Virus record (IMG/VR): IMGVR_UViG_3300020391_000003 | Coordinates: 120,325-184,324 of that record | From: a virus | DNA: 64,000 bases | Direction: 5' to 3' (one strand) | Part shown: one piece after another, positions 893 to 62,287 of the stretch | How the letters are laid out: the number at the start of each line of letters is the position of its first letter | How positions within the stretch are numbered: the stretch's first letter is position 1 | The notes under the pieces: generated by a model | The model's input: the letters and a program-made list of their open reading frames with translations, nothing else | Databases searched by the model: none | What the model was told of the DNA's origin: nothing | Program-made: the position numbers and the translations under genes

Positions 893-998
893 TTTATTGT
901 ATTTGAATATACAATATACACATTTAATATAAGAATATAATGTGTGCAGAAAGAATCTGCAAACAACTTTAAAGTCTAAAATAGTGTATATAAATTAG

Positions 999-2381
999 AT
1001 GGCAAGTTTACCAAAATTTCAATTCACTATGGGGTTGCATGCTCAGGTTGGGGTTAGCCCCAATATATATGTAAACATTTGGACCATAACTAATGTAGAA
1101 ATGATCGATGCCGGAAGCGGAATTCAAAACAGCGCTTTTGTTCAGCTTGAAAACTTGAGCACTGTGTATCACGCTCCCGGTACGGGTGGTAGCGCTCAAG
1201 TAGGATATCCTAATAATTTTAATTTCAGAAGACCAATCATTGGACAAACAAGTTTAAGTCATTTAACTGGCACCGGAAGAAACGGAGGCGTTTTTTCTAA
1301 TTCATTAAAAGATGCCACATTCAATATAACTGTAGATCCATCTACTCAGGCGGTAAGTGGAATATCTCTTCAGAATGGAGGATTTTATTATGGAATTGGG
1401 CAGTCAAATCAAAGTATTACCACTGACTGGCGCTCTTGGGTCGGAAGGAGCGCTGGAAACTTAAACACAACATTGAGTGCAGATGGAGGATACTTTCTGG
1501 GGCTGCCCGCAGAGCTTAAGATTAATGATGTTGAAACAAGACAAGCTAGCAGCAAACAATCAAGGCCAAATAACCCTGTCTATGAAAATGTTAGCGATAT
1601 TTTTACATATAGTTTTCTAGGCAAAGACGCAACAGGTAAAATCAGAAGAGGTGTTGAGCCTTATTATGCGCCTAAAAACCCAACTCAACTTGGTGGATAT
1701 ACTTTTACAGCAGACTATAATTTACATACCGCAACTGTTTTTGCTGATGCGGGTAGTACCACTACCGAAGGAGTAATTCAGGCTAGATTTAACAGTCCCA
1801 ACGCAACAGTATACGGAATTACAGCTCCAATTTTAGGTTTAAATTCTAGCTCAAAAAATTCTATGTTTGCTCAACCCTCTGATCCAACCCCGGATCCAGA
1901 TAAAGGTTTGAAAATCTATGAATTGCCCGAAACAAATGCTGAAGAATTTGACAAAACAAATAGATTTGTAATAGTTCAACAGCCTAGCGGTGAATTATTT
2001 AAAATGAGTGCGTTTCCTTTTTCTTCTGCTCAAGGGGTAGATGGAATAGAATTTTTTGACGAAGAAATTGTGGTTGAGAACATGAGAATTAATACCTCAC
2101 AAGTAAAAGAAATAGATATCCCGGCACATGATTTAAGGGGATTTGTGCCAGATTCAGCAAATTTTGTTATTATAACAATAGAATTTGGCACCGCATTATA
2201 TCCGTTTCTATCGTGTACGCTTGGAAACTGCTTTACATATATGGTTTCAAGGGGTGATGGGGACAATGCTCCAAGATCAAATCAAGTTTTTGTTCCGATT
2301 GTTAATGGAAGATTATTGATAACAAATGTTGAGGTTAGGGCAAGTGGATTTTTAATAATTAAACTTCATGGCTACGGATAA
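999..2381 (+). CDS. Putative virion/tail-associated protein
   Basis: Gly/Ser/Thr/Asn-rich; C-terminal domain shared with the two downstream ORFs; GTGTA motif at 984-988. Confidence 0.55.
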   Translation: MASLPKFQFTMGLHAQVGVSPNIYVNIWTITNVEMIDAGSGIQNSAFVQLENLSTVYHAPGTGGSAQVGYPNNFNFRRPIIGQTSLSHLTGTGRNGGVFSNSLKDATFNITVDPSTQAVSGISLQNGGFYYGIGQSNQSITTDWRSWVGRSAGNLNTTLSADGGYFLGLPAELKINDVETRQASSKQSRPNNPVYENVSDIFTYSFLGKDATGKIRRGVEPYYAPKNPTQLGGYTFTADYNLHTATVFADAGSTTTEGVIQARFNSPNATVYGITAPILGLNSSSKNSMFAQPSDPTPDPDKGLKIYELPETNAEEFDKTNRFVIVQQPSGELFKMSAFPFSSAQGVDGIEFFDEEIVVENMRINTSQVKEIDIPAHDLRGFVPDSANFVIITIEFGTALYPFLSCTLGNCFTYMVSRGDGDNAPRSNQVFVPIVNGRLLITNVEVRASGFLIIKLHGYG

Positions 2382-3554: not shown

Positions 3555-3712
3555 TGCCATTACCAAAACCAAATAAAAACGAAAAAAACAGCAAGTTTAT
3601 GACGCGCTGTATTTCTCAATTAGAATCCAAAAAAGAATTCAAAGATAACAAGCAAAGAATTGCTGTTTGTTACAGCCAATTGGCTAGAAACAAAAGCAAA
3701 AAAAAGTCTTGA
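3554..3712 (+). CDS. 52-aa basic two-Cys protein missing from the ORF track (MPLPKPNKNE...FMTRC...QRIAVCYSQ)
   Basis: Translated by hand; TAATG overlap with the upstream stop; same motif recurs in ORF 18941..19453. Confidence 0.75.
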   Translation: MPLPKPNKNEKNSKFMTRCISQLESKKEFKDNKQRIAVCYSQLARNKSKKKS

Positions 3713-3737
3713 CATTTTAGCACAAATTTGAGATAAT
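3709..3737 (+). promoter_or_regulatory. sigma70-like promoter with extended -10
   Basis: TTGACA (3709-3714), 17 nt, GATAAT (3732-3737) preceded by TGn; ATG at 3744. Confidence 0.75.
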
Positions 3738-3743
3738 TCCAGT

Positions 3744-5153
3744 ATGAAATATTGGATATTATTTTTAATTAGTTTTACTTTATGTGCGAATACCTATGAT
3801 GAAGTTTTTATCAGTGGAAATTCAGATAATCGATTGGACATTGTTTTTGCTCAGCCAGAAAATGAAAATCCAAATTTAATACCAGATGTATCGAAAATGT
3901 GGAATGATGCCTGCGACTACTATCCATTTTACAAAAGATACAAAAACTTTTTCAATGTTCATGTAATCAGTAGAAATGATTTTTTAATGCACGATGAATT
4001 ATGGAATAGCGGCTATTACCAAAGAAATAATTTTAAATTAATTGATGCTAATTTTTCAAAACGCGATCTGGGTTTTATGATGAGATTTCCTTTATCTAAT
4101 AATGGGTGGGCTGCAGACTCATACTTGGAAGAAGGGCGGCTTGGGGCAATGATGGGCACAAATTTCAAAATTTTCGCCCACGAAATGGGGCATATGTTGG
4201 GAGACTTATATGACACCTATTTAAATTACATAGATAGTCATACTCATTATCCTCAAAACATAATTGTGCCAGAAAATCACCCTATTTTTCTTGCAAAATG
4301 GTTTTATCCCAAGCTTAAGCCAGGGTTTGATAAATGGAGTAGATGGCAAGATTATGAAGATCCAATTACAGGCATCAAAATAGATGGCCCTTTTATGGAG
4401 CATACAGAGCCTCATTCTAGTGAAGACATTTTTAATTATTGGAGAACAACAAGTGATACCACATTAATGAGATCATGGAATGCAGAGGGAGCCTTTTTGT
4501 GCCCAGTAGAGCGAGAGCATATGGTTTTGTCTCTTCATAAATACATCGACCCACTAGATTCATATTCAGACAATAATTTATCGATCAATGATTTTGATGT
4601 TTTAGAAGCAAATGTGGTGGATAAAGATGTGATTGATGTTTTGTGGAGCGTAAATGGAGAGCCCATTTCAAATCAGCATTTTCTTGCGATCAAAGATTTA
4701 AATTTAACTCAAGATACCAACATCACACTCACTGCATGGGACAACACACTCAATCACGATTACGAAACTGACAATCGTGGCGGCTGGGTACGAACAGAAG
4801 ATTTTTTAACAACTTATTCTACTGGCCCTGAGGGTGTAATTTCAGAAAGAGACGAAAGCAATAAGCTCACACAAATTATTGATTATAATTATGCCAAAAA
4901 CTCTGAAATTAAAAAATGGCATGATTTGATTCCAAATGTTGTTGGTAATTGGAAGCAATCAAACTGGTTTGGGGTGTTTGGCGTTTTTCAAAATGATTGG
5001 ATTTATCACGAAAAATTAGCTTGGATTTATGTTCATCAGGCAGAGAGAGGCTTATGGTTGTATCTTGAGGGTGCAGGATGGCATTGGACAAATACAACCT
5101 CTTATCCTTACCTTTACTCGCAAACCAAAAGCGAGTGGATTTGGGTGTATTAA
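3744..5153 (+). CDS. Secreted zinc metallopeptidase (M64-like) with Trp-rich C-terminal domain
   Basis: Signal-peptide-like N-terminus; AHEMGHMLGDLYDTY zincin motif; RYKNFFNV segment; C-terminal WFGVF..WIYH..W..YPYLY..W. Confidence 0.7.
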   Translation: MKYWILFLISFTLCANTYDEVFISGNSDNRLDIVFAQPENENPNLIPDVSKMWNDACDYYPFYKRYKNFFNVHVISRNDFLMHDELWNSGYYQRNNFKLIDANFSKRDLGFMMRFPLSNNGWAADSYLEEGRLGAMMGTNFKIFAHEMGHMLGDLYDTYLNYIDSHTHYPQNIIVPENHPIFLAKWFYPKLKPGFDKWSRWQDYEDPITGIKIDGPFMEHTEPHSSEDIFNYWRTTSDTTLMRSWNAEGAFLCPVEREHMVLSLHKYIDPLDSYSDNNLSINDFDVLEANVVDKDVIDVLWSVNGEPISNQHFLAIKDLNLTQDTNITLTAWDNTLNHDYETDNRGGWVRTEDFLTTYSTGPEGVISERDESNKLTQIIDYNYAKNSEIKKWHDLIPNVVGNWKQSNWFGVFGVFQNDWIYHEKLAWIYVHQAERGLWLYLEGAGWHWTNTTSYPYLYSQTKSEWIWVY

Positions 5154-6980: not shown

Positions 6981-7031
6981 ATTATATATTACACATAAAT
7001 ATATATATTTAAAATAAGTGTATACATATAC

Positions 7032-8291
7032 ATGAGCAAAAAAACGTTTCTACCCGAGATAACAGAAAATAAGAAGCTTGCGGTTTTAAGCCAGGTGATA
7101 GATTGGGGCTTAGATCAAGCGAATGTGCCTGAAACATGGAAAACAACACAGGGAGAAGGAATTACTATTCTGGTGATTGACACAGGATTTCCTACTCACG
7201 ATGATATAGGTGATAATGCAATTAAAGGAAAAAATTGTATTCCCACAGAGCCTTTAGAAGATGAAAATGGTCACCAAAGTCACTGCGTGGGAATAATTTG
7301 TGCTAAAAACAATAACCAGGGAATGGTAGGTGTTGCGCCGAAAGCTAAAGCTCTTTGCGTAAAAGCTCTATCAAAATTTGGATCTGGAACCTATGCGCAG
7401 TTAGCAGAAGCCTTGCAATATGCAATCGAAACAAAACCAGATATAGTTTCTATGAGTCTTGGAGGCAACTCTTACGATGCAGATATGCATGAAAAGATAA
7501 AGCAATTATATAAAATGAATATTCCAGTAATTTGTGCTGCAGGAAATACCGGAAGAGGAGGAGTAAACTGGCCTGCTGCATATCCCCAAACAATTGCGGT
7601 AGCAGCTCATGATAAACATGGTAAAATAGCTCGGTTTTCTTCTAGAGGAGAAAGAGTAGAATGGGCTGCACCAGGAGTAGATATTTACAGCACATATTTG
7701 AATAATGGTTATAGAAGTTTAAACGGCACTTCTATGGCTTGCCCCTTTATTGCTGGTGTCGTCGCTTTAATGCTTGCCAAACACAAAAAACAAGAATCAG
7801 AAACTGGAAAAAATAACTGCAAAACCGTTGCTCAAATGAGGGAGCATTTATTAAAATATACCTTAGACAAAGGAATGCAGGGTAAAGATTCTTCTTGGGG
7901 TTATGGGGTGATTGATGTTGAGGGGCTTATTAGTGGAAAAAAACCAAAACCCAAGCCAGAGCCCAAGCCAGAGCCCAAGCCAGAGCCCAAGCCAGAGCCC
8001 AAGCCAGAGCCCAAGCCAGAGCCCAAGCCAGAGCCCAAGCCAGAGCCAGATATACCGCATCCATATCCAGAACCAGATATACCGCATCCATATCCAGAGC
8101 GAGAACCAGATTCTGAAGATGCAATCCATGCAGAACTCTGGCGAAAAATATTAATGGGTGTTGGGTTGCTAATTGCAGCTGGTCTAAGTATGTTTGGTGT
8201 AAGTCAATGCAATAAAGAAGAGCCCGTTGATTGGGACAAAAGATTTGAAGAAGAAATGGAAAGGAAAAATAAAAATGGGACCAATCCTTAA
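7032..8291 (+). CDS. Subtilisin-like S8 serine protease with Pro-rich linker and C-terminal membrane anchor
   Basis: Catalytic triad motifs VIDTG, NGHQSHCVG, GTSMACP; oxyanion AAGN; hydrophobic ILMGVGLLIAAGLSMFGV. Confidence 0.9.
   Translation: MSKKTFLPEITENKKLAVLSQVIDWGLDQANVPETWKTTQGEGITILVIDTGFPTHDDIGDNAIKGKNCIPTEPLEDENGHQSHCVGIICAKNNNQGMVGVAPKAKALCVKALSKFGSGTYAQLAEALQYAIETKPDIVSMSLGGNSYDADMHEKIKQLYKMNIPVICAAGNTGRGGVNWPAAYPQTIAVAAHDKHGKIARFSSRGERVEWAAPGVDIYSTYLNNGYRSLNGTSMACPFIAGVVALMLAKHKKQESETGKNNCKTVAQMREHLLKYTLDKGMQGKDSSWGYGVIDVEGLISGKKPKPKPEPKPEPKPEPKPEPKPEPKPEPKPEPKPEPDIPHPYPEPDIPHPYPEREPDSEDAIHAELWRKILMGVGLLIAAGLSMFGVSQCNKEEPVDWDKRFEEEMERKNKNGTNP
7950..8099 (+). repeat. Coding tandem repeats: 8 x 12 bp (CCCAAGCCAGAG, PKPE) then 2 x 27 bp (PDIPHPYPE)
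   Basis: Counted directly: 7950-8045 and 8046-8099. Confidence 0.95.
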
Positions 8292-8933: not shown

Positions 8934-9520
8934 ATATTGGATTAGATATAATTAGCGTATTAACTGGTGTTGTTTCGGCTGCTACGGCTGTTTTAGGTAT
9001 GTGGTTAAAAGTAAAGTATGACGAGAGAAAAAGTAAGGAATTTAATTATGATCCATCTGCACATAGCAATGTAGTTGCGGCTTTAGATTTTGTAATGGAT
9101 AACACTGATTGTGATCGAGCATATGTTATGGAATTTCATAATGGAGAGCATTATTTTTCAGGAAGAGGTCAGCAGAAATTGAGCTGTACCTATGAGGTAA
9201 TTAGCGAAGGAATAAGCTCTGAATGTCATTCTATGCAAAATATTAGAATATCAAATTTTCATGCAATGATAAAAGATATAGCAGAAAATAAAACTTTTAT
9301 ATGCGAAGATACAGAAAATTATAATGAGGATATAGCGTTTAAATCATTTTTACAGCAAAAAGGCGTAGAGAGTATGTTTGCTAGGCCAGTAAAAACTTTA
9401 AATGGAAAAATCCTTGGCATTATCTGCTTGGAATATGTCAAAGAAAAGAGATTATGGGGCGTTGAGGTAGAAGACTTTGTAAGAAAACAGGCTCGAGTAA
9501 TTAGCGGCTATTTGATATAA
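8930..9520 (+). CDS. Single-TM protein with GAF-like soluble domain
   Basis: Probable start MNIGLD at 8930 (ATGA overlap); DRAYVMEFHNG and SMFARPVKTLNGKILGIICLEY are GAF-like. Confidence 0.55.
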   Translation: MNIGLDIISVLTGVVSAATAVLGMWLKVKYDERKSKEFNYDPSAHSNVVAALDFVMDNTDCDRAYVMEFHNGEHYFSGRGQQKLSCTYEVISEGISSECHSMQNIRISNFHAMIKDIAENKTFICEDTENYNEDIAFKSFLQQKGVESMFARPVKTLNGKILGIICLEYVKEKRLWGVEVEDFVRKQARVISGYLI

Positions 9521-9539
9521 TTTTATTTTTTATTATAAT
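9512..9539 (+). promoter_or_regulatory. sigma70-like promoter
   Basis: TTGATA, 16 nt, TATAAT; ATG at 9548. Confidence 0.55.
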
Positions 9540-9547: not shown

Positions 9548-9913
9548 ATGGCTTTTTCTTACTGTCCACATTGTGGTTTCAAAAATATGTATTCGATACA
9601 AGCGCCCAAATTTTGTGGCGGTTGTGGCGAAAGTTTAAATGTCTTATCTGCAGCAAAGCAAAAAAAATCTAAGCCTGCTGTAAGATCAAGAGCTCCTCGA
9701 GAACGAATTAAAGAACAATCTTACGATCCAGACGGACTAGATATCTTTGAAGTCCCAGAAATATCTAAATTATCTTATAGTATAGAGGTCGATAAGATTT
9801 CATTTGATCTAAAAGATGTATTGCCCTCTGAAGAAGAATTAGATAACATGAAAAAGTCAGAAACGCAAAAACCCAAAAAATTAGCTAAGCGTGGAAGACC
9901 CAGAAAATCATAA
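9548..9913 (+). CDS. Zinc-ribbon protein
   Basis: CPHCG...FCGGCG double CxxC at the N-terminus. Confidence 0.7.
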   Translation: MAFSYCPHCGFKNMYSIQAPKFCGGCGESLNVLSAAKQKKSKPAVRSRAPRERIKEQSYDPDGLDIFEVPEISKLSYSIEVDKISFDLKDVLPSEEELDNMKKSETQKPKKLAKRGRPRKS

Positions 9914-10634
9914 CTTCTCTTACGAAGACAAGTCTGAAGAAATTGATTTAGAAATAAAAAAGAGGCGAGGAAAATGGTTCCTTGATTCTTTAGCTTGGTT
10001 TGACTTTGAAGATGTTGAGCAAATTATAAAAGCTCATATTTATAAGAAATGGCATCAATGGGATCAGTCGAGGTCATTAAAGCCTTGGATAAATAAAATT
10101 ATCACAAATCAGATGAAAAATATATTGCGCAATAATTACAGTAATTTTGTGCGCCCATGCCTGAATTGTCCGTTTAATCAGTCTTGCGCAACTAAAGGCG
10201 GTGGAGAAGCTTCCTTGTGTGGCTTTACAAAAAGTGGCCTACAAGACTCTACTTGTCCGCTTTATGCAAAATGGGAAAGAACAAAAAAACCAGCTTACGG
10301 AATAAAAATGGCTTTAGCTTTAGAAAATCACTCGCATGAAGTATGCTCTATGCCAGATCAAAATTTTGATATTTTAGAAGCTCAAGATAAGTTGAATCAA
10401 TATATGAAGAAAGATCTTTCATCTAAACAATACCAAGTATATGAATTATTATTTGTAAAACATATGGACGAAGAAGAGGTTGCTAAAAAAATGGGATATA
10501 AAACAAGCGAAAAGGGTAGAAAGGCTGGATACAAGCAAATCAAAAATTTAAAGAAAATATTTAAACAAAAAGCTCAAGAAATATTGAAAAATCAAGACAT
10601 AATTACTGTTAGAGCGGTTACGCCATGGAATTAA
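9891..10634 (+). CDS. Phage RNA polymerase sigma factor (group 4/ECF-like) with a Cys-rich insert
   Basis: Region 2-like DFEDVEQIIKAHIYKKWHQWD..LKPWINKIITNQMKNILR; region 4-like LSSKQYQVYELLFVKHMDEEEVAKKMG HTH. Confidence 0.75.
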   Translation: MEDPENHNFSYEDKSEEIDLEIKKRRGKWFLDSLAWFDFEDVEQIIKAHIYKKWHQWDQSRSLKPWINKIITNQMKNILRNNYSNFVRPCLNCPFNQSCATKGGGEASLCGFTKSGLQDSTCPLYAKWERTKKPAYGIKMALALENHSHEVCSMPDQNFDILEAQDKLNQYMKKDLSSKQYQVYELLFVKHMDEEEVAKKMGYKTSEKGRKAGYKQIKNLKKIFKQKAQEILKNQDIITVRAVTPWN

Positions 10635-14458: not shown

Positions 14459-14475
14459 GTGTACCTTTCTTGTAA

Positions 14476-17873: not shown

Positions 17874-17900
17874 TTTTTTTAAATTAACGTTTTGTAAAGG

Positions 17901-17930
17901 TCCACCTCAGGCAACTGGGGTGGATTTTTT
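17901..17930 (+). terminator. Rho-independent terminator after the MCP gene
   Basis: TCCACCTCAG-GCAA-CTGGGGTGGA hairpin (GNRA loop) followed by a T tract. Confidence 0.9.
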
Positions 17931-17986
17931 ATTTAATTAGTTTATTATATTAGTGTATAACCCATACAAGGCAAAAGGTAAAAATT

Positions 17987-18926: not shown

Positions 18927-18940
18927 GTGTAAGTATAATT

Positions 18941-19453: not shown

Positions 19454-21890
19454 TATTATTTATTATTTTTCCTTTGCACAAGGAAAACTTTATTTCTGAG
19501 CCAGCAACTAATTTATTACTTAAGAGCATCTTAGACAAATCATTTTCAATAAATTTTTGAATAAGTCTTTTGATTGGTCTTGCTCCCATTTTTTCCTCAT
19601 GCGCTGCTTCAGCTATATGTCTGACTGCTTTAGGGGTGACCGAGATAGATATATTTTTGTGAAAAAGTTTATTTTCTAAGTCTTGAAGCTCAAGTCTTGC
19701 TATTTGTCCAAGTTGGCTAATATTAAAATCCTCAAAAACTATAACCTCATTTAGTCTATTTAAAAATTCTGGTTTAAAATAAATTTTTAATTCTGATTTA
19801 ATTTTATCTGCAGAATTAGAAGAGGTATCTGTAGAAAAACCAACAGATGCTTTGTCTAATTTTTCACTACCAACATTGCCTGTTAATATTATTGTGCAAT
19901 TAGAAAAGTTAATTTTTCTTCCAGAATTATCAGTGACAAAACCTTCTTCTAATATTTGCAAAAGAACATTTAAAACTTCAGGATGAGCTTTTTCTACTTC
20001 ATCAAATAATACTACACTGTAAGGGTTTCTTCTTACTTTTTCTGTCAATTCTCCTCCTTCTTCATATCCAACATACCCTGGAGATGCTCCAATTAATCTG
20101 CTTGAAGAAATTTTTTCAGAAAATTCACTCATATCAATTTGTATAAGTTTGCTTTTGTCTCCGTATATATATTCAGCTATACATTTAGCAGTATATGTTT
20201 TTCCTGTTCCAGTCGCACCAACAAGCAAAAAGCTACCTACTGGTTTATTTGGATCTTGAAGTCCAGATTTAGATCTAAGGATACATTCGGAAATTTCTTT
20301 AAGAGCAGTAGATTGGCCAATAATCTTTTTATTTAATTTTTTGAACAATCCGAGCATTTTGTCGGAATCTTTTTTTGAAATTTCAGATATAGGAATTCTA
20401 GTTCTAGAAGATATAACTTCATAAATATCTTTCTTTTTTACAGATATTTTTCTTTTCATGGTTTTTTTTGCCCAATTATCAATTATACCATCATATTCTT
20501 CTAATAATTGTAACTGCTTGTCTTCTAGGTCTATTGACTGAGCTCCAATCAAATTAAGCTTTGACTCTTGAAGTGCGAGCTCTTCTAGCTTGTGCTCAAT
20601 GTCTTTTGCTTCTTGAGGTCTTTCTATATTTTTTATTTTAACTTTTGATCCCACCTGATCAATAATATCAATTGCTTTATCTGGAAACTGCTTGTCAAAA
20701 ATATATCTTGATGTAAGCTCTACTGCTAGATCAAGGACTTCTGGTGGATATAATATCCCATGAAATTCTTCGTACTTTGATTTAATTCCCTCAAGTATTT
20801 CTCTGGTTTGCTCTTTGGTTGGTTCTAAAACCGTTACTGCCTGAAAGCGCCTATCTAGTGCTCCATCTTTAAGTATAGATTTTTTATACTCGTCTTGAGT
20901 AGTCGCTCCAATGCATTTCAATTCTCCTCTGGCAAGTAAAGGTTTTAATATATTTGCGGCATCCATACTTCCTTCTGCGCTGCCTGCACCAACCAGAGTA
21001 TGTATTTCGTCGATGAATAAAACTAAGTTGTCATTTTTTTTAGCTTCATCTATAACACCTTTTAGTCTTTCCTCAAATTGACCTCTATATTTTGTTCCTG
21101 CGATTAAGGAACCTAAGTCTAAAGAATATATTGTTTTATTTAAAAGAAAATCAGAGGCTTCTCCACTGTTAATTTTTTGAGCTAGTCCTTCAACAATCGC
21201 AGTTTTACCAACTCCAGCTTCACCCAAAAGAACTGGATTGTTTTTTGTTCTTCTACATAAAATTTCAGAAACTTCGTATATTTCTTGACTCTTGCCTACT
21301 ATATTATCAAACTTTCCTTGGGAGGCCATAGCATTTAAATTTGTAGCAAATTTCTCTAAATTTTGTATGTTTTTTTCTTTTACTGATTTAGTCTTGCTTC
21401 TATTAGGAGAGGAAGGTTTTTGTACACCGGAAGCTTCTTTGCCAAGGTGCAGATAATCTCTAACTTCAGAAATAATATCATCTTCAGAAGCGTTAAAGGA
21501 ATTGAAATATTTGGGTATATTTGATTCTTCGTATTTTAGTAACGCTAAAAGAATGTGTTCTATCCCTACGTATTCATGTCCTAGCTTGCTTGCTATAGAT
21601 GCAGAAACTTTTAAAACTAGATGAAAATGTTGATCAAATGAAGGTTCCATCATCATGTCAAAACTTGTCTGATCAAAATTAAAAAAAGAGCTTTCAATTT
21701 TTTCTTTTAATAAATTTTGGTCAATTTTAAGCAAGAAAAGTATTTCGGCTAGTATCCCAGCATTTAAATTAACCATTCCATAAAATAAGTGATCAAGTGT
21801 CACAAATTCATTGGAATATTTTCTTGCAACTTTTTTAGCTTCATTAATTGCCTGCTGAGCGCGAGGCGTAAAATTAGGTTTAGGAGTCAT
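19434..21890 (-). CDS. clpC: ATP-dependent Clp protease ATPase subunit (ClpC/ClpA family)
   Basis: Clp N-domain repeats; NBD1 GEAGVGKT/LFIDEIH; NBD2 GATGTGKT/LFDEVEKAH; VGF loop; MGARPIKR. Start may be 21890 or 21896. Confidence 0.9.
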   Translation of the reverse strand: MTPKPNFTPRAQQAINEAKKVARKYSNEFVTLDHLFYGMVNLNAGILAEILFLLKIDQNLLKEKIESSFFNFDQTSFDMMMEPSFDQHFHLVLKVSASIASKLGHEYVGIEHILLALLKYEESNIPKYFNSFNASEDDIISEVRDYLHLGKEASGVQKPSSPNRSKTKSVKEKNIQNLEKFATNLNAMASQGKFDNIVGKSQEIYEVSEILCRRTKNNPVLLGEAGVGKTAIVEGLAQKINSGEASDFLLNKTIYSLDLGSLIAGTKYRGQFEERLKGVIDEAKKNDNLVLFIDEIHTLVGAGSAEGSMDAANILKPLLARGELKCIGATTQDEYKKSILKDGALDRRFQAVTVLEPTKEQTREILEGIKSKYEEFHGILYPPEVLDLAVELTSRYIFDKQFPDKAIDIIDQVGSKVKIKNIERPQEAKDIEHKLEELALQESKLNLIGAQSIDLEDKQLQLLEEYDGIIDNWAKKTMKRKISVKKKDIYEVISSRTRIPISEISKKDSDKMLGLFKKLNKKIIGQSTALKEISECILRSKSGLQDPNKPVGSFLLVGATGTGKTYTAKCIAEYIYGDKSKLIQIDMSEFSEKISSSRLIGASPGYVGYEEGGELTEKVRRNPYSVVLFDEVEKAHPEVLNVLLQILEEGFVTDNSGRKINFSNCTIILTGNVGSEKLDKASVGFSTDTSSNSADKIKSELKIYFKPEFLNRLNEVIVFEDFNISQLGQIARLELQDLENKLFHKNISISVTPKAVRHIAEAAHEEKMGARPIKRLIQKFIENDLSKMLLSNKLVAGSEIKFSLCKGKIINNITEEEV

Positions 21891-21912
21891 CTTCATATAT
21901 TTACACTGTAAA

Positions 21913-28963: not shown

Positions 28964-28992
28964 TTGACTATTTTCGTTATTTAATGTAGAAT
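28964..28992 (+). promoter_or_regulatory. sigma70-like promoter for nrdB
   Basis: TTGACT, 17 nt, TAGAAT; ATG 7 nt downstream. Confidence 0.75.
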
Positions 28993-28999
28993 ATAAACC

Positions 29000-30013
29000 A
29001 TGAATGATAAAACTGGAGAATTATTAACTGAAAACATCGCGGGAGTAAATAGAATTTTACCTCATAAACATAAATTTGCATGGGATCTATTTTTAAAAAG
29101 CTGTGCAAACAATTGGATGCCTACCGAAATAAGTATGCAAAATGATATTAAACAATGGAAAAATGATGAAATTACGGAAGATGAAAAACTTCTTGTTAAA
29201 CGCTGTCTTGGATTTTTTGCTGGAAGCGAGTCTTTGGTTGGCAATAATTTGTTATTATCAGCCTTTCGCTATATTACAGATGCTGAGTGTCGCCAATATA
29301 TATTGCGTCAAGCATTTGAAGAGAGTCTACACAACCTCACCGTAGTATATGTCTGCGATAGCTTGGATTTAGATATTGAAGAAGTTTTCGCTGCTTATGA
29401 AACGATTCCGAGCATTAAAGCCAAAGACGACTTTCTTATGGAAATTACAAATGATCTTAGTCGTCAAGATTTTAAGCCTCACACAAAAGAAGGAAAGCAA
29501 GAAATACTAAGAAACTTTTTAACGTATTGGATAGTATGTGAAGGAACTTTCTTTTTTAGTGGATTTGCTATGCTATTAGCACTAGGCAGGCAAAATAAAT
29601 TGCAAGGAATATCAGATCAAATTAAGTATACATTGAGGGACGAAAGTTCTCATATTTCATTTGGAACATATTTAATAAATACAATGATCGAGCAAGATCC
29701 TTCTATATGGACAAAAGAAATTCAAGAAGAATTTGTTGAGCATATGAAAAAAGCTGTTGAATTAGAAATTGCATACGCTCACGATGTTTTACCAACGGGT
29801 ATTCTTGGATTAAATGCTGATATGTTCGTAGATTACATGCATTATATTGGTAATCGAAGACTAGAAGGTATTGGGCTAGATTACAGATTTCCCAGTGACA
29901 AAAATCCCTTTCCTTGGTTAAGTGAAGTCGTAGACGTTCAAGCTATGGGCAACTTCTTCGAAAGAAGAGTAAGAGAGTATCAGCAAAGTGGGTCTTTAGA
30001 AGATGACTTTTAA
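29000..30013 (+). CDS. nrdB: Ribonucleotide reductase beta subunit, class Ic (R2c)-type
   Basis: E77; E108xxH111; EGTFFFSGF; DESSH; Val115 at the radical-Tyr position. Confidence 0.9.
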   Translation: MNDKTGELLTENIAGVNRILPHKHKFAWDLFLKSCANNWMPTEISMQNDIKQWKNDEITEDEKLLVKRCLGFFAGSESLVGNNLLLSAFRYITDAECRQYILRQAFEESLHNLTVVYVCDSLDLDIEEVFAAYETIPSIKAKDDFLMEITNDLSRQDFKPHTKEGKQEILRNFLTYWIVCEGTFFFSGFAMLLALGRQNKLQGISDQIKYTLRDESSHISFGTYLINTMIEQDPSIWTKEIQEEFVEHMKKAVELEIAYAHDVLPTGILGLNADMFVDYMHYIGNRRLEGIGLDYRFPSDKNPFPWLSEVVDVQAMGNFFERRVREYQQSGSLEDDF

Positions 30014-31332: not shown

Positions 31333-31352
31333 AATAATTATTTGTTTACACT

Positions 31353-36358: not shown

Positions 36359-36399
36359 GCATTATGTTACACGAAACAGAGGTATTTTATATTATTTTT

Positions 36400-41928: not shown

Positions 41929-43442
41929 TAAATATCGGGGACTTCATCTCCTCTTTCAATAAGAACGCCAACTCCTTCCGATTCTATATGGTCAACCATG
42001 TCTTGAAGGTCTCCTTTTTCTGTGATTGAAAAATTTTCTAAATTTAAATTGATATAGTTTTTTCTTTTGCTTCCATCTGGCATTTCTATAGGTTGTAGGG
42101 CTCTATGTACATCTTTGCCTAGCCATCTGTACTTTAGGCAAATGAGTTTATGAGTGCCAAAGTCTTCAGGTTCATCTTGAATTTCATCCATTGTTTTTTG
42201 TCTTAATAAAAATAAGTGAGAGCAAAATTGTGTAATTTGATCGGATAAAGAAACTATACTTTCGTCATCTACTACATTGTCTGAATTTCTATTATTGGTA
42301 ATTCCTAGGCGATTGCTCTGGACACTTGTGAGCATAGATACTGCAGGCTTGTCATTGAAACATAATTCTTTTTGAATTAATTGCTTGAATTTATCAACCA
42401 TTCTTCCCACAGTTTCCCAGCTACTCGTTCCATTCTGGCGCTCATAGGTAGTTTTAATATAGTCGAAACTAAAAATCATCTGGTTTCCTCTGCCAACCTC
42501 GGAATAATAAAACCTTCTTATTATATTCAACATGCTATCTATGGAGTGTCCTGCAACATTGTAGTAATAAAACTTGAATTTTTTAACCTTCTTCCAGGTA
42601 TCTCTTACTTTTTCTATAATTTCTTCTCCAGCTTGACGCCATCGACCAGTTTCAAGCAAATGCATGGGCACTCCAGAAAGTGCAGAACACTGCCTAACAA
42701 TTAACTCTTCTTTGCTCATTTCTCCATTGTCAAAATGAAGTACAGGAATATTGTTATTTATCTCTGAAACTTTTGTGCAGAAATCCATACAAAATTGTGT
42801 CTTACCAACTCCTGCTCTAGCTACAACAACCGCTATATTTCCTGGTCTAAACAAAGAACCATAAAGTTCATTTAATCGAGGATGAGGCCCCATTAATCCA
42901 AATTCATCAATTGGATTATTGCCTCTTTCTTCAATAAAATCTTCCATGTCATCAAAAAGATTCTCTGGCTTGCTTGAGCCCATCTCGTATAGATTTATTT
43001 TATCGTTGTATATTTTGTCTGCTTCGCTTACAATGTCATCAAAACTGGCGCTTGAAGGCATGCTCTTCATATTTTTTGCAACTTGTAAAGATGCATTGTG
43101 TATCTCTCTTCTTACCGTAATTTTCTTCAACTCTTGCGCGGCTTTTAAAACTCCTTCTTTGGATATCTGTCTCATGGATAGAGCTTTAATGTAGTCTGAA
43201 ATGTTAATATTATCTTCAAAGGAAATATTTAAAGACTGAACTCTTTGAGCTAGCAGAACTTCGTCTAGTGCATCTCCCAATTCAAGTGATTGCCTTAACA
43301 CACAAAAAATAGTTTTATTAACAATAGTGTTTTTATCAAAGAAATCGTCTTGATTTATGAAAGATGCTATTAGTGGATAGCTTTCTGGGTATTTTATAAG
43401 TCCAGCTATTAGATGCTGCTCTAGTTCGTGTGAATTTACCAT
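41928..43442 (-). CDS. dnaB: Replicative DNA helicase (DnaB family)
   Basis: ARAGVGKT Walker A, FDNGEM, FDYIK, SVQSNR, KYR. Confidence 0.88.
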   Translation of the reverse strand: MVNSHELEQHLIAGLIKYPESYPLIASFINQDDFFDKNTIVNKTIFCVLRQSLELGDALDEVLLAQRVQSLNISFEDNINISDYIKALSMRQISKEGVLKAAQELKKITVRREIHNASLQVAKNMKSMPSSASFDDIVSEADKIYNDKINLYEMGSSKPENLFDDMEDFIEERGNNPIDEFGLMGPHPRLNELYGSLFRPGNIAVVVARAGVGKTQFCMDFCTKVSEINNNIPVLHFDNGEMSKEELIVRQCSALSGVPMHLLETGRWRQAGEEIIEKVRDTWKKVKKFKFYYYNVAGHSIDSMLNIIRRFYYSEVGRGNQMIFSFDYIKTTYERQNGTSSWETVGRMVDKFKQLIQKELCFNDKPAVSMLTSVQSNRLGITNNRNSDNVVDDESIVSLSDQITQFCSHLFLLRQKTMDEIQDEPEDFGTHKLICLKYRWLGKDVHRALQPIEMPDGSKRKNYINLNLENFSITEKGDLQDMVDHIESEGVGVLIERGDEVPDI

Positions 43443-43448
43443 GCAAGA

Positions 43449-43477
43449 ATGGTATCATAATAAATAAGAAATGTCAA
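43449..43477 (-). promoter_or_regulatory. sigma70-like promoter for the dnaB operon
   Basis: TTGACA, 17 nt, TACCAT with TGn extension; ATG 6 nt downstream. Confidence 0.75.
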
Positions 43478-43755: not shown

Positions 43756-43772
43756 ATTCTATATTACACTAA

Positions 43773-45279: not shown

Positions 45280-45604
45280 CTATAAATTGTCTGATTGTTT
45301 TTAATTTTTTCGAAATTATTTTGTCTTTTCCCTGTTTTTTTCCTATTGGAATTTCAACCTTCTCAGGTATTTTATAATTAAATTCTTTATACTTTTTTGA
45401 TAGTATGTTTAGTCCGTGACCAGATCTTAATACTGCTAAAGAGGGAACTTTATCTAGGGTAACCCTTTGCCAGAAATCTTCTGACTTGAACATATTCATT
45501 AGATCATTGAGAATTTTCATTTCTCTAGCCCAAAACATTCTCTTTTGGGTTGATGGCTCAGTAACAATTTTTTTAATTATATTTCTTTTGTTGAGTTTTT
45601 TCAC
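45266..45604 (-). CDS. Basic hypothetical protein
   Basis: GTG start 6 nt after the -10 box. Confidence 0.65.
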   Translation of the reverse strand: MKKLNKRNIIKKIVTEPSTQKRMFWAREMKILNDLMNMFKSEDFWQRVTLDKVPSLAVLRSGHGLNILSKKYKEFNYKIPEKVEIPIGKKQGKDKIISKKLKTIRQFIDEQN

Positions 45605-45610
45605 CCATCA

Positions 45611-45639
45611 AGTATAACTTAATTTGTATAAAAAGTCAA
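45611..45639 (-). promoter_or_regulatory. sigma70-like promoter for the recombinase operon
   Basis: TTGACT, 17 nt, TATACT. Confidence 0.75.
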
Positions 45640-47884: not shown

Positions 47885-47899
47885 TTTAATATATACACT

Positions 47900-48079: not shown

Positions 48080-48110
48080 ATTTATGTATACACTATTTAT
48101 GGTTTACGGA

Positions 48111-48160: not shown

Positions 48161-48174
48161 GTGTACCATAATGC

Positions 48175-51583: not shown

Positions 51584-51597
51584 ATATTATTTTACAC

Positions 51598-51623
51598 AAA
51601 AAAGGCGACCCCAAAGGGTCGCC
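51598..51623 (-). terminator. Terminator after the repeat-fibre gene
   Basis: GGCGACCC-TTTG-GGGTCGCC followed by TTTTTT on the minus strand. Confidence 0.88.
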
Positions 51624-51652
51624 CAAGAATTAAATCTTGCTCGTATTACTGA

Positions 51653-55154: not shown

Positions 55155-55158
55155 AATT

Positions 55159-59618: not shown

Positions 59619-59648
59619 CGCATTTTATTACACGGCAAATTTCAATAT

Positions 59649-62264
59649 TTATTCTGAAATGACAAAACTAGCAGGATTTAATGTGGAGGTATTAGCTGAC
59701 CTATTTAACTTATCAAGGTTAAATAAAAATGATCCGTTTGAGTCTGCAATACCATTAGAGTCGCACACTGTAAAATTATTATTTTCATCTATTGCGTTGG
59801 ATAATTGAAAACCGTCGGCATATGATTTATATGTATAAATGGTGCCTCCGTTTGGTGCAGTTCCACCTTCTGATATATTTTCCAAAGATACGTTGGTTGG
59901 ATTTGAAACCGTAGTGCCTATATCGGCTAATCCTGCGCCTAGACTATTTGGTGATGCGGATATGGTTCTAGAAGAAAATCCTTCTAATTTATATGTTGGT
60001 CTTGTAGAAATTGATGTAGTTTCTATATTGGCCAAATTAAAAGCTGAAACTTGCCATGAAAATGTTCCTTTGGTGTCGACATCTTTTGCAACTATTGTAA
60101 AAGAATTGCTGTTTCTTCCTGTGCCGGATGAATTTATGGTAAGTTGAGATGGGTTTGTTTGTGCGCTGCTGGTAGATAAGGATGGAGCAGTAAGCATTAA
60201 TTGATTACTGGACATTGAGAATTGATCTGAGTTGCCAGCTGGAGAGCTAATTAATTTTGAAGCTAAGTTGTTGATTGACAAAGATAAAGGTGTATTTGCA
60301 ATATTTACCACATCTTGATCTTCTATTGTAATTCCATTTGAGGTTTTTGTTGCAGATATTTTTATATTATTTTGACCACCATCATTTTTTACATTGTATC
60401 CCCCGTTTAAATAATCCACACTTTTATTTGATTCGAACGTATTAGGGTTGGATATTGTTAACTGGTTATTTGGCGATGCGTATATTACTGAATCGTAATT
60501 GTTTAGAGTGTTTAAAACGGTTGCGCTTTCTGTGTCTTTAATAGCTTGTTGTGAAGCAGGGTAGGTAATTGATGATATTGAAACTGATGGAGCGCTACCG
60601 TTATTTAATTTAGCTGTATCTGTTGTTGTGAATTTGTCGCTTTGTGTGCCAAAATTATTTCTAGCCTTAAAGGATGCAGCTTGATCTCCGTCTCTATTTG
60701 AGGATCCAATTGAACCAAATACAGAGATAGGAACTGTGAATTTATATGTTCCGTCTGATAGAGTTGTTTTGGAGTAAGTTGAAGAGAAAGATGTTTGTGT
60801 CCCCTTTGATACCCCTTCATTTTGAACAGAAATTGAAATGTTATTAATGGAAACTCCTTTTCCGTCAACAACAATTTCTGAATTGATAGTGTCACCAGCC
60901 TTAACTTCTTGGGTTCCAATAATATGTGGAGATGTTGTGGATGTGGCTAATGAGTCTAATGATCCGCTGATGATCGCTGGACCGTTCGCAATTTTTACTT
61001 TCACTCTTTCTGTATCTGTAGCTCCATTGTTTGTTCTAAGTGCATGTATTTCAATATTATCTGAATTATTAAATATACCACCAACATAATTTACCGTTTT
61101 AGGTGATTCGAATATTCCTGAGTTAGTTATGCTGATTTCAGAATTCAAAGATGAATAAGAAACCGTATCTGTGGTATCTTGCCAGTTTAATATGCTGTTT
61201 GAAAAGGTTGTAGACTCACCTTCTCTTAGGCCGTCTGATCTTCCATTATATGATGTTGGATCACTTGCGTTAATAATTGGATATAGTTGATCAAGGTCTC
61301 TTGTTCCGCTGGTATGACCGTAATCAGTCGATTCTTTTAAATCACCTGTAGCACCAAAGGTATTAATTGCTTGAACTGCGACTGAGCTTGGACCAGATCT
61401 ATTAGAAACTGTTACGGGAATCGTAGCCCTAAAAAGTCCACCTATGTCCACTAAATTGTAATTACTAAAATCAATTTCTTCTGCTAAGCCATGATTGTGA
61501 ACTTTTATAAAGTCTACGTCATTCCTATCAAAATCAACGAATATATTAATTGTGTCTCCTTGTTTTAAATGAGAGGATCCTAGTTCATGGCCAGGTCTTG
61601 CGGTTGCATTTGATATTTCGTCAATCATTATATTTACCGCCTCAGGACCGCCACCAAGTTCATTTAAAGGTATGATTGTAGATCTACCATTTGCGTGTCC
61701 AGTTATGCCTGTAAAACCTTCAAGATTAACATTATCCAAAAATCCTTTAAACCTTCTTGTATTATCTCCAAGTTCTTCTATATTTTCAAGAGGTATTGCT
61801 TGGCCATTAATGGAAGCAAATCCAACATAATCTTGACTTGGTCCGTCCCATTCTATCTCGATTCTTAAATCTTCGGCAGTAGCCACAGTAACTCCCGAAA
61901 GATGAGTGTTTGCATCTGGGGTATTGGTATAAAATATTTTTTCTGTAACTCCGATATTATCACTAACATCTGAGAAAAAAACAAATTCTGCGGCTCCAGA
62001 ACTAACTTGAGTTATTGAAGTGTTTAGGGTATCTAGTTTTGTTGCAACATCAACACCCGCAACGGTCAAACCATTAGTGAAGTTTCCTTGATTAAATTCA
62101 ACTGAATCAGTAGTTCTTACGTTTTGATCCATGACAAGAAACTCATTGTTAATTAGCTTGCCATCAAAATATAGATTATCAAAGACGCCTGTACCCCAGG
62201 CTCTGCCTATTCTACCTACACTGCCTTCTCCGCTATTTCTTGGAACTAGATTTCTTGTGCCCAT
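59649..62264 (-). CDS. Large Ser/Thr/Gly/Asn-rich virion protein (fibre/baseplate-like, Ig-like repeats)
   Basis: RNLVPRNSGEGSVG N-terminus; internal similarity (LK.GDTIN / VKAGDTIN; FESPKTVNY / FESNKSVDY); GTGTA 9 nt upstream. Confidence 0.6.
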   Translation of the reverse strand: MGTRNLVPRNSGEGSVGRIGRAWGTGVFDNLYFDGKLINNEFLVMDQNVRTTDSVEFNQGNFTNGLTVAGVDVATKLDTLNTSITQVSSGAAEFVFFSDVSDNIGVTEKIFYTNTPDANTHLSGVTVATAEDLRIEIEWDGPSQDYVGFASINGQAIPLENIEELGDNTRRFKGFLDNVNLEGFTGITGHANGRSTIIPLNELGGGPEAVNIMIDEISNATARPGHELGSSHLKQGDTINIFVDFDRNDVDFIKVHNHGLAEEIDFSNYNLVDIGGLFRATIPVTVSNRSGPSSVAVQAINTFGATGDLKESTDYGHTSGTRDLDQLYPIINASDPTSYNGRSDGLREGESTTFSNSILNWQDTTDTVSYSSLNSEISITNSGIFESPKTVNYVGGIFNNSDNIEIHALRTNNGATDTERVKVKIANGPAIISGSLDSLATSTTSPHIIGTQEVKAGDTINSEIVVDGKGVSINNISISVQNEGVSKGTQTSFSSTYSKTTLSDGTYKFTVPISVFGSIGSSNRDGDQAASFKARNNFGTQSDKFTTTDTAKLNNGSAPSVSISSITYPASQQAIKDTESATVLNTLNNYDSVIYASPNNQLTISNPNTFESNKSVDYLNGGYNVKNDGGQNNIKISATKTSNGITIEDQDVVNIANTPLSLSINNLASKLISSPAGNSDQFSMSSNQLMLTAPSLSTSSAQTNPSQLTINSSGTGRNSNSFTIVAKDVDTKGTFSWQVSAFNLANIETTSISTRPTYKLEGFSSRTISASPNSLGAGLADIGTTVSNPTNVSLENISEGGTAPNGGTIYTYKSYADGFQLSNAIDENNNFTVCDSNGIADSNGSFLFNLDKLNRSANTSTLNPASFVISE

Positions 62265-62287
62265 TTATTATATTACACCCAAGGTTA

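What the first reader, a model, noticed from the sequence alone, without database searches (positions are those of the whole stretch)
984..62278. Genome-wide GTGTA motif 9 nt before start codons: candidate phage late promoter and regulon
Seen: GTGTA lies exactly 9 nt upstream of ten starts (6980-, 7032+, 18941+, 36358-, 43755-, 47884-, 48079-, 48175+, 51583-, 62264-). It lies 10-14 nt upstream of five more (999+, 59618-, 21890-, 14476+, 31332-) and 29 nt upstream of 17987+. These are mostly operon heads for portal, prohead protease and fibres, but they also include ClpC, DUF1501, the DUF2827/GT cluster, S8 protease, J-protein and the MbcA-like gene. Core replication and RNR operons instead carry TTGACA-17-TAnnnT. 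Inference: a single short element, possibly read by the phage sigma (9891..10634), gives leaderless or near-leaderless late mRNAs and marks several unexpected accessory genes as late. Alternative: an unusual translation-initiation signal, since the spacing is SD-like.
Basis: partly seen in the sequence, partly recalled or inferred. Interest (0 to 1): 0.85.

Follow-up and report, generated by a model that had tools for sequence, protein, structure and literature searches.

The report
Phage GTGTA promoters abutting start codons
An uncultured 184-kb marine phage, like a very large clade of its relatives, puts the five-base word GTGTA 9-10 bases before the start codons of its structural and accessory genes. 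It is most likely a one-piece promoter read by a phage-made sigma factor, so that the messages start on the AUG itself.

Summary
All 16 named sites exist with the stated spacings. The window holds 9 GTGTA-N9-ATG against 1.1 +/- 1.0 in shuffles. In the whole 184-kb genome an unbiased k-mer scan finds only two fixed-position words before starts: TTGAC at -35 (19 genes) and GTGTA at -14/-15 (19 genes).

The promoter reading is well supported from sequence, and the ribosome-site reading is not:
- The reverse complement of GTGTA is the most depleted of 1022 pentamers inside genes.
- Spacers are bimodal: 9-10 nt without SD, or 21-30 nt with an AAGG-type SD.
- GTGTA stays invariant while its flanks drift.
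- No -35 box appears in 173 distinct sites.
- The geometry matches the phiEco32 gp36 promoters (tAATGTAtA, start 6-8 bp downstream).

Limits:
- No transcription start was mapped; only assembled RNA contigs were available.
- The genome encodes two sigma factors, both core to the clade, so assigning GTGTA to 9891-10634 is open.
- Most sites are internal promoters in 14-41-nt gaps, not operon heads.
- The sigma-70-type early promoters are also placed for leaderless mRNAs.

This scan has already found and followed up the same motif on related DNA. I rate it a new variant of a known kind, of moderate interest.

The parts
984..988 (+). GTGTA, 10 nt before ATG 999 (460-aa protein, no family hit); divergent intergenic region
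6990..6994 (-). GTGTA, 9 nt before ATG 6980 (64 aa, weak MbcA-like match); back to back with the next site
7018..7022 (+). GTGTA, 9 nt before ATG 7032 (S8 peptidase); one RNA-run contig begins at about 7031-7034
14459..14463 (+). GTGTA directly after the TerL stop codon, 12 nt before ATG 14476 (539 aa, portal by position). Invariant in 28 distinct relatives while the 11-14-nt spacer varies
17953..17957 (+). GTGTA, 29 nt before ATG 17987, with an AAGG SD-like element in the leader; follows terminator hairpin 17896-17929
18927..18931 (+). GTGTA directly after a stop codon, 9 nt before ATG 18941 (170 aa)
21902..21906 (-). GTGTA, 11 nt before the second ATG (21890) of the ClpC/ClpB-like gene; in relative G001 the second ATG lies at 10 nt
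31347..31351 (-). GTGTA, 14 nt before ATG 31332 (DUF1501)
36368..36372 (-). GTGTA, 9 nt before ATG 36358 (DUF5824 protein)
43765..43769 (-). GTGTA, 9 nt before ATG 43755 (93 aa)
47894..47898 (-). GTGTA, 9 nt before ATG 47884 (78 aa)
48089..48093 (-). GTGTA, 9 nt before ATG 48079 (59 aa); divergent partner of the next site
48161..48165 (+). GTGTA, 9 nt before GTG 48175 (659 aa, no family hit)
51593..51597 (-). GTGTA, 9 nt before ATG 51583 (226 aa), immediately behind a GC-rich hairpin plus T-run (51598-51624, - strand)
59629..59633 (-). GTGTA, 10 nt before ATG 59618 (DUF2827)
62274..62278 (-). GTGTA, 9 nt before ATG 62264 (871 aa, no family hit)
917..921 (-).
9891..10634 (+). Sigma-A: divergent ECF-like sigma with four invariant Cys between the sigma-2 and sigma-4 parts; one of two candidate readers of GTGTA. 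Lies in an operon headed by a sigma-70-type promoter (TTGATA-16-TATAAT, 9512-9539)
3709..3746 (+). Example of the other class: TTGACA-17-GATAAT-6-ATG, with TTGAC exactly at -35 from the start codon (469-aa gene)
43440..43477 (-). TTGACA at -35 from the ATG of the DnaB-like helicase gene (sigma-70-type, leaderless geometry)

Best explanation
GTGTA, followed by an A/T-rich, G-poor stretch, is the single core element of a phage-specific promoter class. It is -10-like and has no -35 box. Host core RNA polymerase carrying a phage-encoded sigma factor recognises it and starts transcription about 9-10 nt downstream of its last A. The sigma is either sigma-A at 9891-10634 or the second sigma at genome 3746-4339.

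In about six sites in ten (121 of 205 distinct sites have a 9-14-nt spacer) that point is the A of the start codon or a few bases before it, so the mRNA is leaderless or nearly so and needs no Shine-Dalgarno sequence. In the rest the element sits 21-30 nt upstream and the short leader carries an AAGG-type SD. Many copies sit in 14-41-nt gaps inside co-directional gene strings, so each structural or accessory gene unit gets its own boost.

Both sigma genes lie behind sigma-70-type promoters. This gives a cascade: host sigma drives early and replication genes plus the phage sigmas, which then drive the GTGTA genes.

Shown from sequence: position, strictness, conservation, avoidance on both strands, absence of a -35 box, and the link between spacer length and SD. 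Inferred: the transcription start point, the timing, and which sigma reads the element.
For: 1. Position. GTGTA is one of only two fixed-position words before gene starts in an unbiased scan. This holds in this genome, in relatives G001 and G004 (TerL about 70% identical), in 15 loci of more distant lineages, and in the complete 147-kb genome G011 (TerL 50%, sigma-A 38% identical).
2. Parallel class. TTGAC(A/T) lies exactly at -35, tG at -15/-14, T-12 A-11 ... T-7, and ATG at +1 in 20 genes (32 within offsets of 33-38 nt). The phage therefore places canonical promoters for leaderless starts, and GTGTA sits where their -10 region sits.
3. DNA-level signal. Against synonymous-codon shuffles, sense GTGTA inside genes is 38 against 65 (z -3.7). 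Its complement TACAC is 47 against 123 (z -8.4), the most depleted of 1022 pentamers. TACAC is again rank 1 in G001 (36 against 110) and is depleted in G004 and G011. GTGTA is the rarest of its 30 permutations, and 41% of copies in relatives lie within 60 nt of an ORF start, against 1-9% for 28 of the others and 16% for the overlapping word AGTGT.
4. Spacers. In 205 distinct sites, 97 have 9-10 nt (1% with an SD-like word), 24 have 11-14, there is a trough at 15-20 (13 sites), and a second mode at 21-30 (34 sites) where 65% have an SD-like word against 8% in shuffled leaders.
5. Footprint. Upstream of the portal gene, the TerL stop plus GTGTA is invariant in 28 distinct relatives while the next 11-14 nt vary. 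In distant relatives GTGTA lies 28 nt upstream, with AAGGAG (L064) or AAGGA (L078) in between.
6. Anatomy. No -35 box appears in 173 distinct sites. All five bases are needed: 37 sites against 0.49 expected, and one-mismatch words are not enriched except GTATA and GTTTA, weakly. There are divergent back-to-back pairs and copies right behind terminators.
7. Precedent. phiEco32 middle and late promoters are a single element, tAATGTAtA, read by phage sigma gp36 with starts 6-8 bp downstream (PMC8948821; PMC12276001). That is TGTA-(8-10 nt)-start, the same geometry as here.
8. Candidate readers. Two sigma-70-family genes are present, and no T7-type RNAP match was found (uninformative because the control was empty).
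9. Regulon. It holds tail J-like, tape-measure, giant-fibre, portal-position and capsid-neighbour genes.
Against: - No transcription start has been mapped. Only assembled RNA contigs were on hand. At the leadered site 17953, contigs of two studies begin 13 nt upstream of GTGTA, just after the terminator hairpin. This fits read-through but gives no support.
- Five bases carry little information, and 85 copies remain inside genes, so extra context must matter.
- Neither sigma is detectably related to gp36.
- Sigma-A appears to keep a sigma-4-like domain although no -35 box is seen.
- 'Late' rests on gene content only.
Confidence: 0.7

Rival explanations
1. GTGTA is a promoter element, but it is read by host RNA polymerase holoenzyme (primary or an alternative host sigma) whose specificity is changed by a phage factor. 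The phage sigmas serve other, unrecognised promoters. This would resemble the Thermus phage late promoters (TAGGGT -10) or the appropriator systems of T4.
For: - The Lalka27a preprint infers a phage factor acting on host RNAP for a distinctive late -10 element in a mostly leaderless phage.
- The TA of GTGTA falls on or next to T-12 A-11 of the phage's own sigma-70-type class.
- With two phage sigmas, only one phage-specific motif was found.
Against: - GTGTA lacks the T-7 of TAnnnT.
- It lacks the one-base gap of the extended -10 (TGnTA), so it does not fit sigma-70 rules.
- Two conserved phage sigmas need promoters, and no other fixed-position motif exists.
Confidence: 0.15
2. GTGTA acts on the mRNA as an unusual ribosome-binding or translation-initiation signal with SD-like spacing.
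For: - The modal spacing of 9-10 nt to the start codon is near the SD range.
- The genes concerned lack an SD.
- Many copies lie between co-directional genes, where coupling signals are expected.
Against: - The strongest avoidance is on the antisense strand of genes, which an RNA signal cannot explain.
- The element also works from 21-30 nt away, where a normal AAGG-type SD is then supplied.
- Divergent back-to-back pairs and copies right behind terminators look like promoters.
- The phage clearly uses AAGG/AAGGA as its SD and avoids those words inside genes.
- GTGTA is not complementary to the canonical CCUCC anti-SD (established knowledge; the host rRNA is unknown).
Confidence: 0.05
3. GUGUA is an RNA-processing site: a phage or host endoribonuclease cuts polycistronic RNA about 9 nt downstream and so creates leaderless cistrons.
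For: - Many sites lie within co-directional gene strings without terminators.
- RNA contigs bridge some sites.
Against: - Antisense-strand avoidance.
- Sites in divergent intergenic regions where no upstream transcript in that direction is expected (6990/7018, 48089/48161).
- No nuclease candidate is tied to the motif.
Confidence: 0.05

Closest known systems
Middle/late promoters of coliphage phiEco32, read by the phage sigma gp36 (PMC8948821, PMC12276001, PMC4331800)
   Same: - A single short -10-like element containing TGTA (tAATGTAtA there, aGTGTA here), with no -35 box.
- Start 6-8 bp after the 9-bp element, which is TGTA-(8-10 nt)-start. Here it is GTGTA-(9-10 nt)-ATG.
- A phage-encoded sigma and sigma-70-type early promoters in the same genome.
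- The elements precede middle and late genes.
   Different: - The core word differs: GTG against AAT before TA.
- Neither sigma of this phage is detectably homologous to gp36.
- The papers read for phiEco32 did not mention leaderless transcripts, whereas here the start codon is locked to the element.
- About 30-40 sites per genome here, against six in phiEco32.
- No transcription has been shown here.
Leaderless transcription programmes of Thermus phages phiYS40 and Lalka27a (bioRxiv 10.64898/2026.04.20.719267)
   Same: - Most transcripts start on the A or G of the initiation codon.
- Temporal classes are distinguished by different -10 elements.
- Late promoters are dense, standing in front of individual late genes without intervening terminators.
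   Different: - The Thermus late element is TAGGGT (a TAnnnT variant) plus a C at -25, and is ascribed to modified host RNAP. Here the element is not TAnnnT, and phage sigmas are present.
- The hosts differ: Thermus, where leaderless mRNAs are common, against an unknown marine bacterium.
- The Thermus data are experimental.
Late promoters of phage T4 (TATAAATA, read by gp55 with gp33 and the clamp) and the bipartite late promoters of Salmonella phage 7-11 (GTAAtg-16-aCTA, PMC8948821)
   Same: A phage-encoded sigma-family protein redirects host core RNAP to a short phage-specific element at late genes.
   Different: - The sequence words differ.
- T4 late mRNAs carry leaders with an SD (own knowledge).
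- The 7-11 promoters are bipartite.

Membership tests
phiEco32 gp36-type single-element phage promoters | One conserved -10-like element containing TGTA | tested here: met
   GTGTA is invariant at 37 starts in three genomes against 0.49 expected. The phiEco32 consensus is tAATGTAtA.
phiEco32 gp36-type single-element phage promoters | No -35 element | tested here: met
   No informative column from -45 to -7 in 173 distinct sites or in 21 sites of this genome.
phiEco32 gp36-type single-element phage promoters | Transcription starts 6-8 bp downstream of the element | not testable with these tools
   Only assembled RNA contigs were available. The geometry (start codon 9-10 nt after GTGTA, bimodal spacers) is consistent.
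phiEco32 gp36-type single-element phage promoters | Cognate sigma homologous to gp36 | tested here: not met
   hhalign of the sigma-A profile against gp36 gave probability 0.1%. BLASTP of sigma-B against gp36 gave E 2.3.
Sigma-70 family, group 4 (ECF-like) sigma factor (sigma-A, 9891-10634) | Sigma-2 domain (regions 2.1-2.4) | tested here: met
   Pfam Sigma70_r2 scores 25.1-27.4 bits against a cut-off of 24. It matches region 2 of SigR, 1h3l.
Sigma-70 family, group 4 (ECF-like) sigma factor (sigma-A, 9891-10634) | Sigma-4 domain | tested here: inconclusive
   Sigma70_r4_2 scores 13.5 bits, below the cut-off of 25.7. TIGR02937 scores 37.1, below 42.9. The Foldseek top hits are whole ECF sigmas (Mtb SigH, E 3e-3), but the model is mediocre (pLDDT 69.5).
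Leaderless mRNA genes | No Shine-Dalgarno sequence, and mostly an AUG start | tested here: met
   Among 97 distinct sites with a 9-10-nt spacer, 1% have an SD-like word and 92 start with ATG.
Leaderless mRNA genes | [quoted passage not shown] | tested here: inconclusive
   RNA-run contigs begin at about 7031-7034 (ATG 7032) and at 14480 (ATG 14476), but contigs cannot show true ends. At 17940 they begin upstream of the element.
Sigma-70 extended -10 promoters (TGnTAnnnT) | TG one base upstream of a TAnnnT hexamer | tested here: not met
   In GTGTA the TG abuts TA, and T at the sixth hexamer position is at chance level. The phage's own sigma-70 class does show tGnTAnnnT.
Shine-Dalgarno-type ribosome-binding site | Acts on the sense RNA only, at a fixed short distance, and pairs with the 16S 3' end | tested here: not met
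   The strongest avoidance is on the antisense strand. The element is also found 21-30 nt upstream with a separate AAGG SD. Pairing with the host rRNA could not be tested because the host is unknown.

The most novel reading that the evidence does not exclude
A very large clade of marine phages runs its whole programme on leaderless messages. The sigma-A family alone has 518 clusters at 50% identity. Host-sigma early promoters and phage-sigma GTGTA promoters are both locked to the start codon. The GTGTA class would be read by a previously undescribed sigma subfamily that carries a four-cysteine (zinc-ribbon-like) insert and needs only five base pairs. If so, the phage may gain a translational advantage over SD-dependent host messages late in infection.
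Probability: 0.3. Interest if true: 0.7.

Novelty: new variant of a known kind. Interest (0 to 1): 0.5.

Why it matters
- **Regulatory map.** If the reading holds, one five-base word gives a ready map of an abundant but uncultured marine phage clade. It shows which genes are switched on together with the virion genes, including ClpC-like, DUF1501, glycan-synthesis, APS-kinase and PhoH genes.
- **Annotation.** It fixes true start codons, for example the second ATG of the ClpC-like gene, and improves gene calling in these AT-rich genomes.
- **Testable pair.** It offers a compact sigma/promoter pair that can be tested in vitro without the unknown host.
- **Translation strategy.** Together with the sigma-70-type class at -35 from the ATG, it suggests that systematic leaderless expression is not confined to Thermus and actinobacterial phages.

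Tried and rejected
- **RNA evidence.** The 24 runs found are all kept as assembled contigs. Laying four of them gave contig ends near two GTGTA-led start codons (7032, 14476). At the third site the contig ends lie 13 nt upstream of the element, next to a terminator hairpin. Contigs cannot show starts, so nothing was concluded.
- **Host.** The DUF1501 gene is closest (55-59% identity) to marine Opitutia/Puniceicoccaceae MAGs. Five such genomes show no excess of TTGAC-N18-TANNNT-N6-ATG (0-3 matches a genome against 0-2 for the control), and their matched sequences look GC-richer than the phage. The host stays unknown.
- **Isolated phages.** TerL reaches only about 24% identity and sigma-A has no significant match in 50,697 phage records.
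- **Literature.** No paper in the library holds GTGTA together with 'phage' and 'late promoter'.
- **Third promoter class.** A motif for the second sigma was sought among upstream regions lacking both motifs, by eye and by a positional TAnnnT count. Nothing convincing was found.
- **Co-occurrence.** Presence or absence of sigma-B was tested as a way to tell the sigmas apart. Sigma-B is present in G001 and in all four distant genomes tested, so the test is uninformative.
- **T7-type RNAP.** There was no match, but the control genomes gave none either, so this is uninformative.
- The contexts of distant sigma-A homologues were fetched through the search for related loci instead.

Full report
**What the window is.** The window is the last 64 kb of a single-contig virus record of 184,324 bp with 34% G+C. 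It encodes a T4-type-like large terminase, RNR, DnaB, a Pol III alpha, a ClpC/ClpB-like AAA+ protein, DUF1501 and DUF1549/1553 proteins, and glycan-synthesis genes. Outside the window lie tail J-like, tape-measure and giant-fibre genes. No isolated phage is close: TerL reaches about 24% identity. IMG/VR, however, holds more than 588 relatives.

**The observation.**
- The window has 9 GTGTA-N9-ATG, plus one GTGTA-N9-GTG, against 1.10 +/- 1.02 in shuffles, and none of 100 shuffles reaches 9. GTGTA as a word is nonetheless under-represented (48 against 60.9).
- Genome-wide there are 127 GTGTA. An ATG follows after 9 nt in 16 cases and after 10 nt in 9, against 0-3 at most other spacers (up to 8 at 13 nt).
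Only two signals stand out. TTGAC begins exactly at -35 in 19 genes (0.28 expected, p 8e-29). GTGTA begins at -14 in 13 genes and at -15 in 6 (0.08 expected each).
- The word is strict. Over three genomes, 37 starts carry GTGTA at -14/-15 against 0.49 expected. One-mismatch variants are not enriched, except GTATA and GTTTA weakly.

**The other promoter class sets the frame.**
- Aligned on the start codon, the TTGAC class is a textbook sigma-70 promoter: TTGAC(A/T) at -35 to -30, a 17-bp spacer, tG at -15/-14, T-12, A-11 and T-7, with the ATG at +1.
- This holds exactly in 20 genes and within offsets of 33-38 nt in 32.
- By the known geometry of sigma-70 promoters, transcription then starts on the A of the ATG. 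The phage therefore builds leaderless genes on purpose. This class heads the small-gene block, the DnaB-like helicase gene and the RNR small-subunit gene; the RNR large-subunit gene has its TTGACA at -40.
- GTGTA occupies -14 to -10, or -15 to -11, which is the place of the -10 region in that frame.

**Promoter or ribosome signal?** Five independent lines point to a DNA-level signal.
1. *Avoidance inside genes.* Against synonymous-codon shuffles, GTGTA on the sense strand is 38 against 65 (z -3.7). Its reverse complement TACAC is 47 against 123 (z -8.4), the single most depleted of 1022 pentamers. TACAC is again rank 1 in the complete relative G001 (36 against 110). It is depleted in G004 (z -4.8) and G011 (z -4.4). 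An RNA signal gives no reason to avoid the antisense strand, whereas an antisense promoter does. GTGTA is also the rarest of its 30 permutations. In relatives, 41% of its copies lie within 60 nt of an ORF start, against 1-9% for 28 of the other permutations and 16% for the overlapping word AGTGT.
2. *Bimodal spacers.* Among 205 distinct sites, 97 have 9-10 nt and 24 have 11-14. There is a trough at 15-20 (13 sites) and a second mode at 21-30 (34 sites). In that second mode 65% carry an SD-like word at -16 to -4, against 8% in shuffled leaders. In the 9-10 class only 1% do. This is what a start point about 9-10 nt after GTGTA predicts: either no leader, or a leader long enough to hold an SD.
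3. *Footprinting.* Upstream of the portal-position gene, the TerL stop codon plus GTGTA is invariant in 28 distinct relatives, while the next 11-14 nt differ in sequence and length. In distant relatives GTGTA sits 28 nt upstream, with AAGGAG (L064) or AAGGA (L078) in between.
4. *Anatomy.* Copies form divergent back-to-back pairs (6990/7018, 48089/48161). Some follow terminator hairpins directly (17896-17929; 51598-51624).
5. *The phage's own SD.* The phage uses AAGG/AAAGG as its SD and avoids AAGGA, AGGAT and TAAGG inside genes. GTGTA is therefore not its ribosome word.

**Anatomy of the element.**
- No -35-like column appears in 21 sites of this genome or in 173 distinct sites of the family.
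- The flanks are A/T-rich, and the 9-nt spacer is almost free of G.
- The element is not an extended -10: TG abuts TA, and there is no T at the hexamer's last place.
- Of the 16 window sites, five lie in divergent intergenic regions. Eleven lie after a co-directional gene, nine in gaps of only 14-41 nt and two behind terminators (17987, 51583). Often GTGTA begins right after the stop codon. These are internal promoters rather than operon heads.

**Who reads it.**
- The genome has two sigma-70-family genes that are unrelated to each other.
- Sigma-A (9891-10634) scores Sigma70_r2 above the cut-off and has a weak region 4. It carries four invariant cysteines, C90, C93, C110 and C122, between the two parts. 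A mediocre AF2 model has whole ECF sigmas as its best fold matches.
- Sigma-B (genome 3746-4339, - strand) scores TIGR02937 at 46.6 bits, above its cut-off.
- Both genes sit behind sigma-70-type promoters, as expected for a cascade.
- A search for a T7-type RNAP found nothing, but its control was empty, so it is uninformative.
- Sigma-A is syntenic with TerL in all relatives. Its family has 518 clusters at 50% identity.
- In loci of lineages whose sigma-A is only 38-66% identical and whose TerL is 40-70% identical, GTGTA at -14 is again the top word (12 of 345 starts against 0.14 expected). The complete 147-kb genome G011 shows both classes again.
- Sigma-B is also present in G001 and in all four distant genomes tested. 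Co-occurrence therefore cannot decide between the two sigmas.

**Comparison with known systems.**
- The closest described system is phiEco32. Its middle and late promoters are a single element, tAATGTAtA, without a -35 box. They are read by the phage sigma gp36, with starts 6-8 bp downstream. That equals TGTA-(8-10 nt)-start, against GTGTA-(9-10 nt)-ATG here.
- Neither sigma here is detectably related to gp36. The likeness is one of mechanism, not of family.
- Genome-wide leaderless transcription with class-specific -10 elements and dense late promoters is described for the Thermus phages phiYS40 and Lalka27a.
- No paper in the library mentions this motif.
- Within this scan the same motif has been noted and followed up on several related genomes, with the same reading. 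I reached my reading before seeing those notes.

**What remains open.**
- No 5' end is mapped. Contigs from RNA runs begin at about 7031-7034 (ATG 7032) and at 14480 (ATG 14476). At the leadered site they begin at 17940, before the element. Contigs cannot show true ends.
- Timing ('late') is inferred from gene content only.
- The host is unknown.

**Verdict.** It is a promoter with high probability, read by a phage sigma with moderate probability, and the identity of that sigma is undecided. I class it as a new variant of a known kind.

Noticed in passing
whole genome; in the window e.g. 3709-3746(+), 43440-43477(-), 45602-45639(-), 28964-29002(+): Sigma-70-type promoters are locked to start codons. 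TTGAC begins exactly 35 nt before the start codon in 20 genes, with tG at -15/-14 and TAnnnT at -12 to -7, so early and replication genes also look leaderless. The same is seen in relatives G001, G004 and G011.
   Followed up: yes
G000:C1:3746-4339 (- strand; outside the window; L082:1156-1749): A second phage sigma factor (197 aa; TIGR02937 46.6 bits), unrelated in sequence to the one at 9891-10634. It lies in an operon headed by a leaderless TTGACA promoter and is conserved (35-43% identity) in G001 and in four distant genomes of the clade. No promoter class of its own was found.
   Followed up: partly
window 9891-10634: The sigma-A family has four invariant cysteines (C90-x2-C93 ... C110 ... 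C122) in an insert between the sigma-2 and sigma-4 parts, and an invariant RKAGYKQIKNLKK stretch near the C-terminus. The family has 518 clusters at 50% identity in the 1.84-billion-protein library.
   Followed up: partly
relatives G001 (194.5 kb), G004 (116 kb), G011 (147 kb): CCGG is completely absent from G001 and G004 (about 178 and 133 expected from base frequencies). GCCGG, CCGGA and ACCGG are absent from the genes of G011, where TGTAC and GTACT are also absent and GTACA occurs once. This genome has 77 CCGG (about 157 expected). It looks like lineage-specific avoidance of restriction sites.
   Followed up: partly
window 21890-21896 (- strand): The ClpC/ClpB-like gene probably starts at its second ATG (21890, 11 nt after GTGTA) rather than at 21896 (5 nt after). 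In G001 the second ATG of the orthologue lies 10 nt after GTGTA.
   Followed up: partly
whole genome, coding regions: AAGGA, AGGAT, TAAGG and AGGAC are among the most depleted pentamers inside genes, and AAAGG is enriched at -13 before starts. The host ribosome therefore uses an AAGG(A)-type Shine-Dalgarno pairing, although many phage genes do without it.
   Followed up: partly
whole genome, last four bases before start codons: AATT lies immediately before the start codon in 22 of 228 genes (3 expected), including many leaderless-type genes. This may reflect a preference at the start point (T at -1, A at +1).
   Followed up: no
window 30067-31332 (- strand): The DUF1501 gene is closest (55-59% identity) to genes of marine Opitutia/Puniceicoccaceae MAGs (Verrucomicrobiota). 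This hints at the source of the gene or at the host, but those genomes look GC-richer and show no leaderless promoter pattern.
   Followed up: partly
relative G001, e.g. G001:C1:6515, 8137, 19555 (- strand): A subfamily of early promoters, TTGACA-N17-TAGTGT followed by 6 nt and ATG, shares the longer word TTTAGTGTG. It contains GTGT in another register and should not be counted as a GTGTA site.
   Followed up: partly
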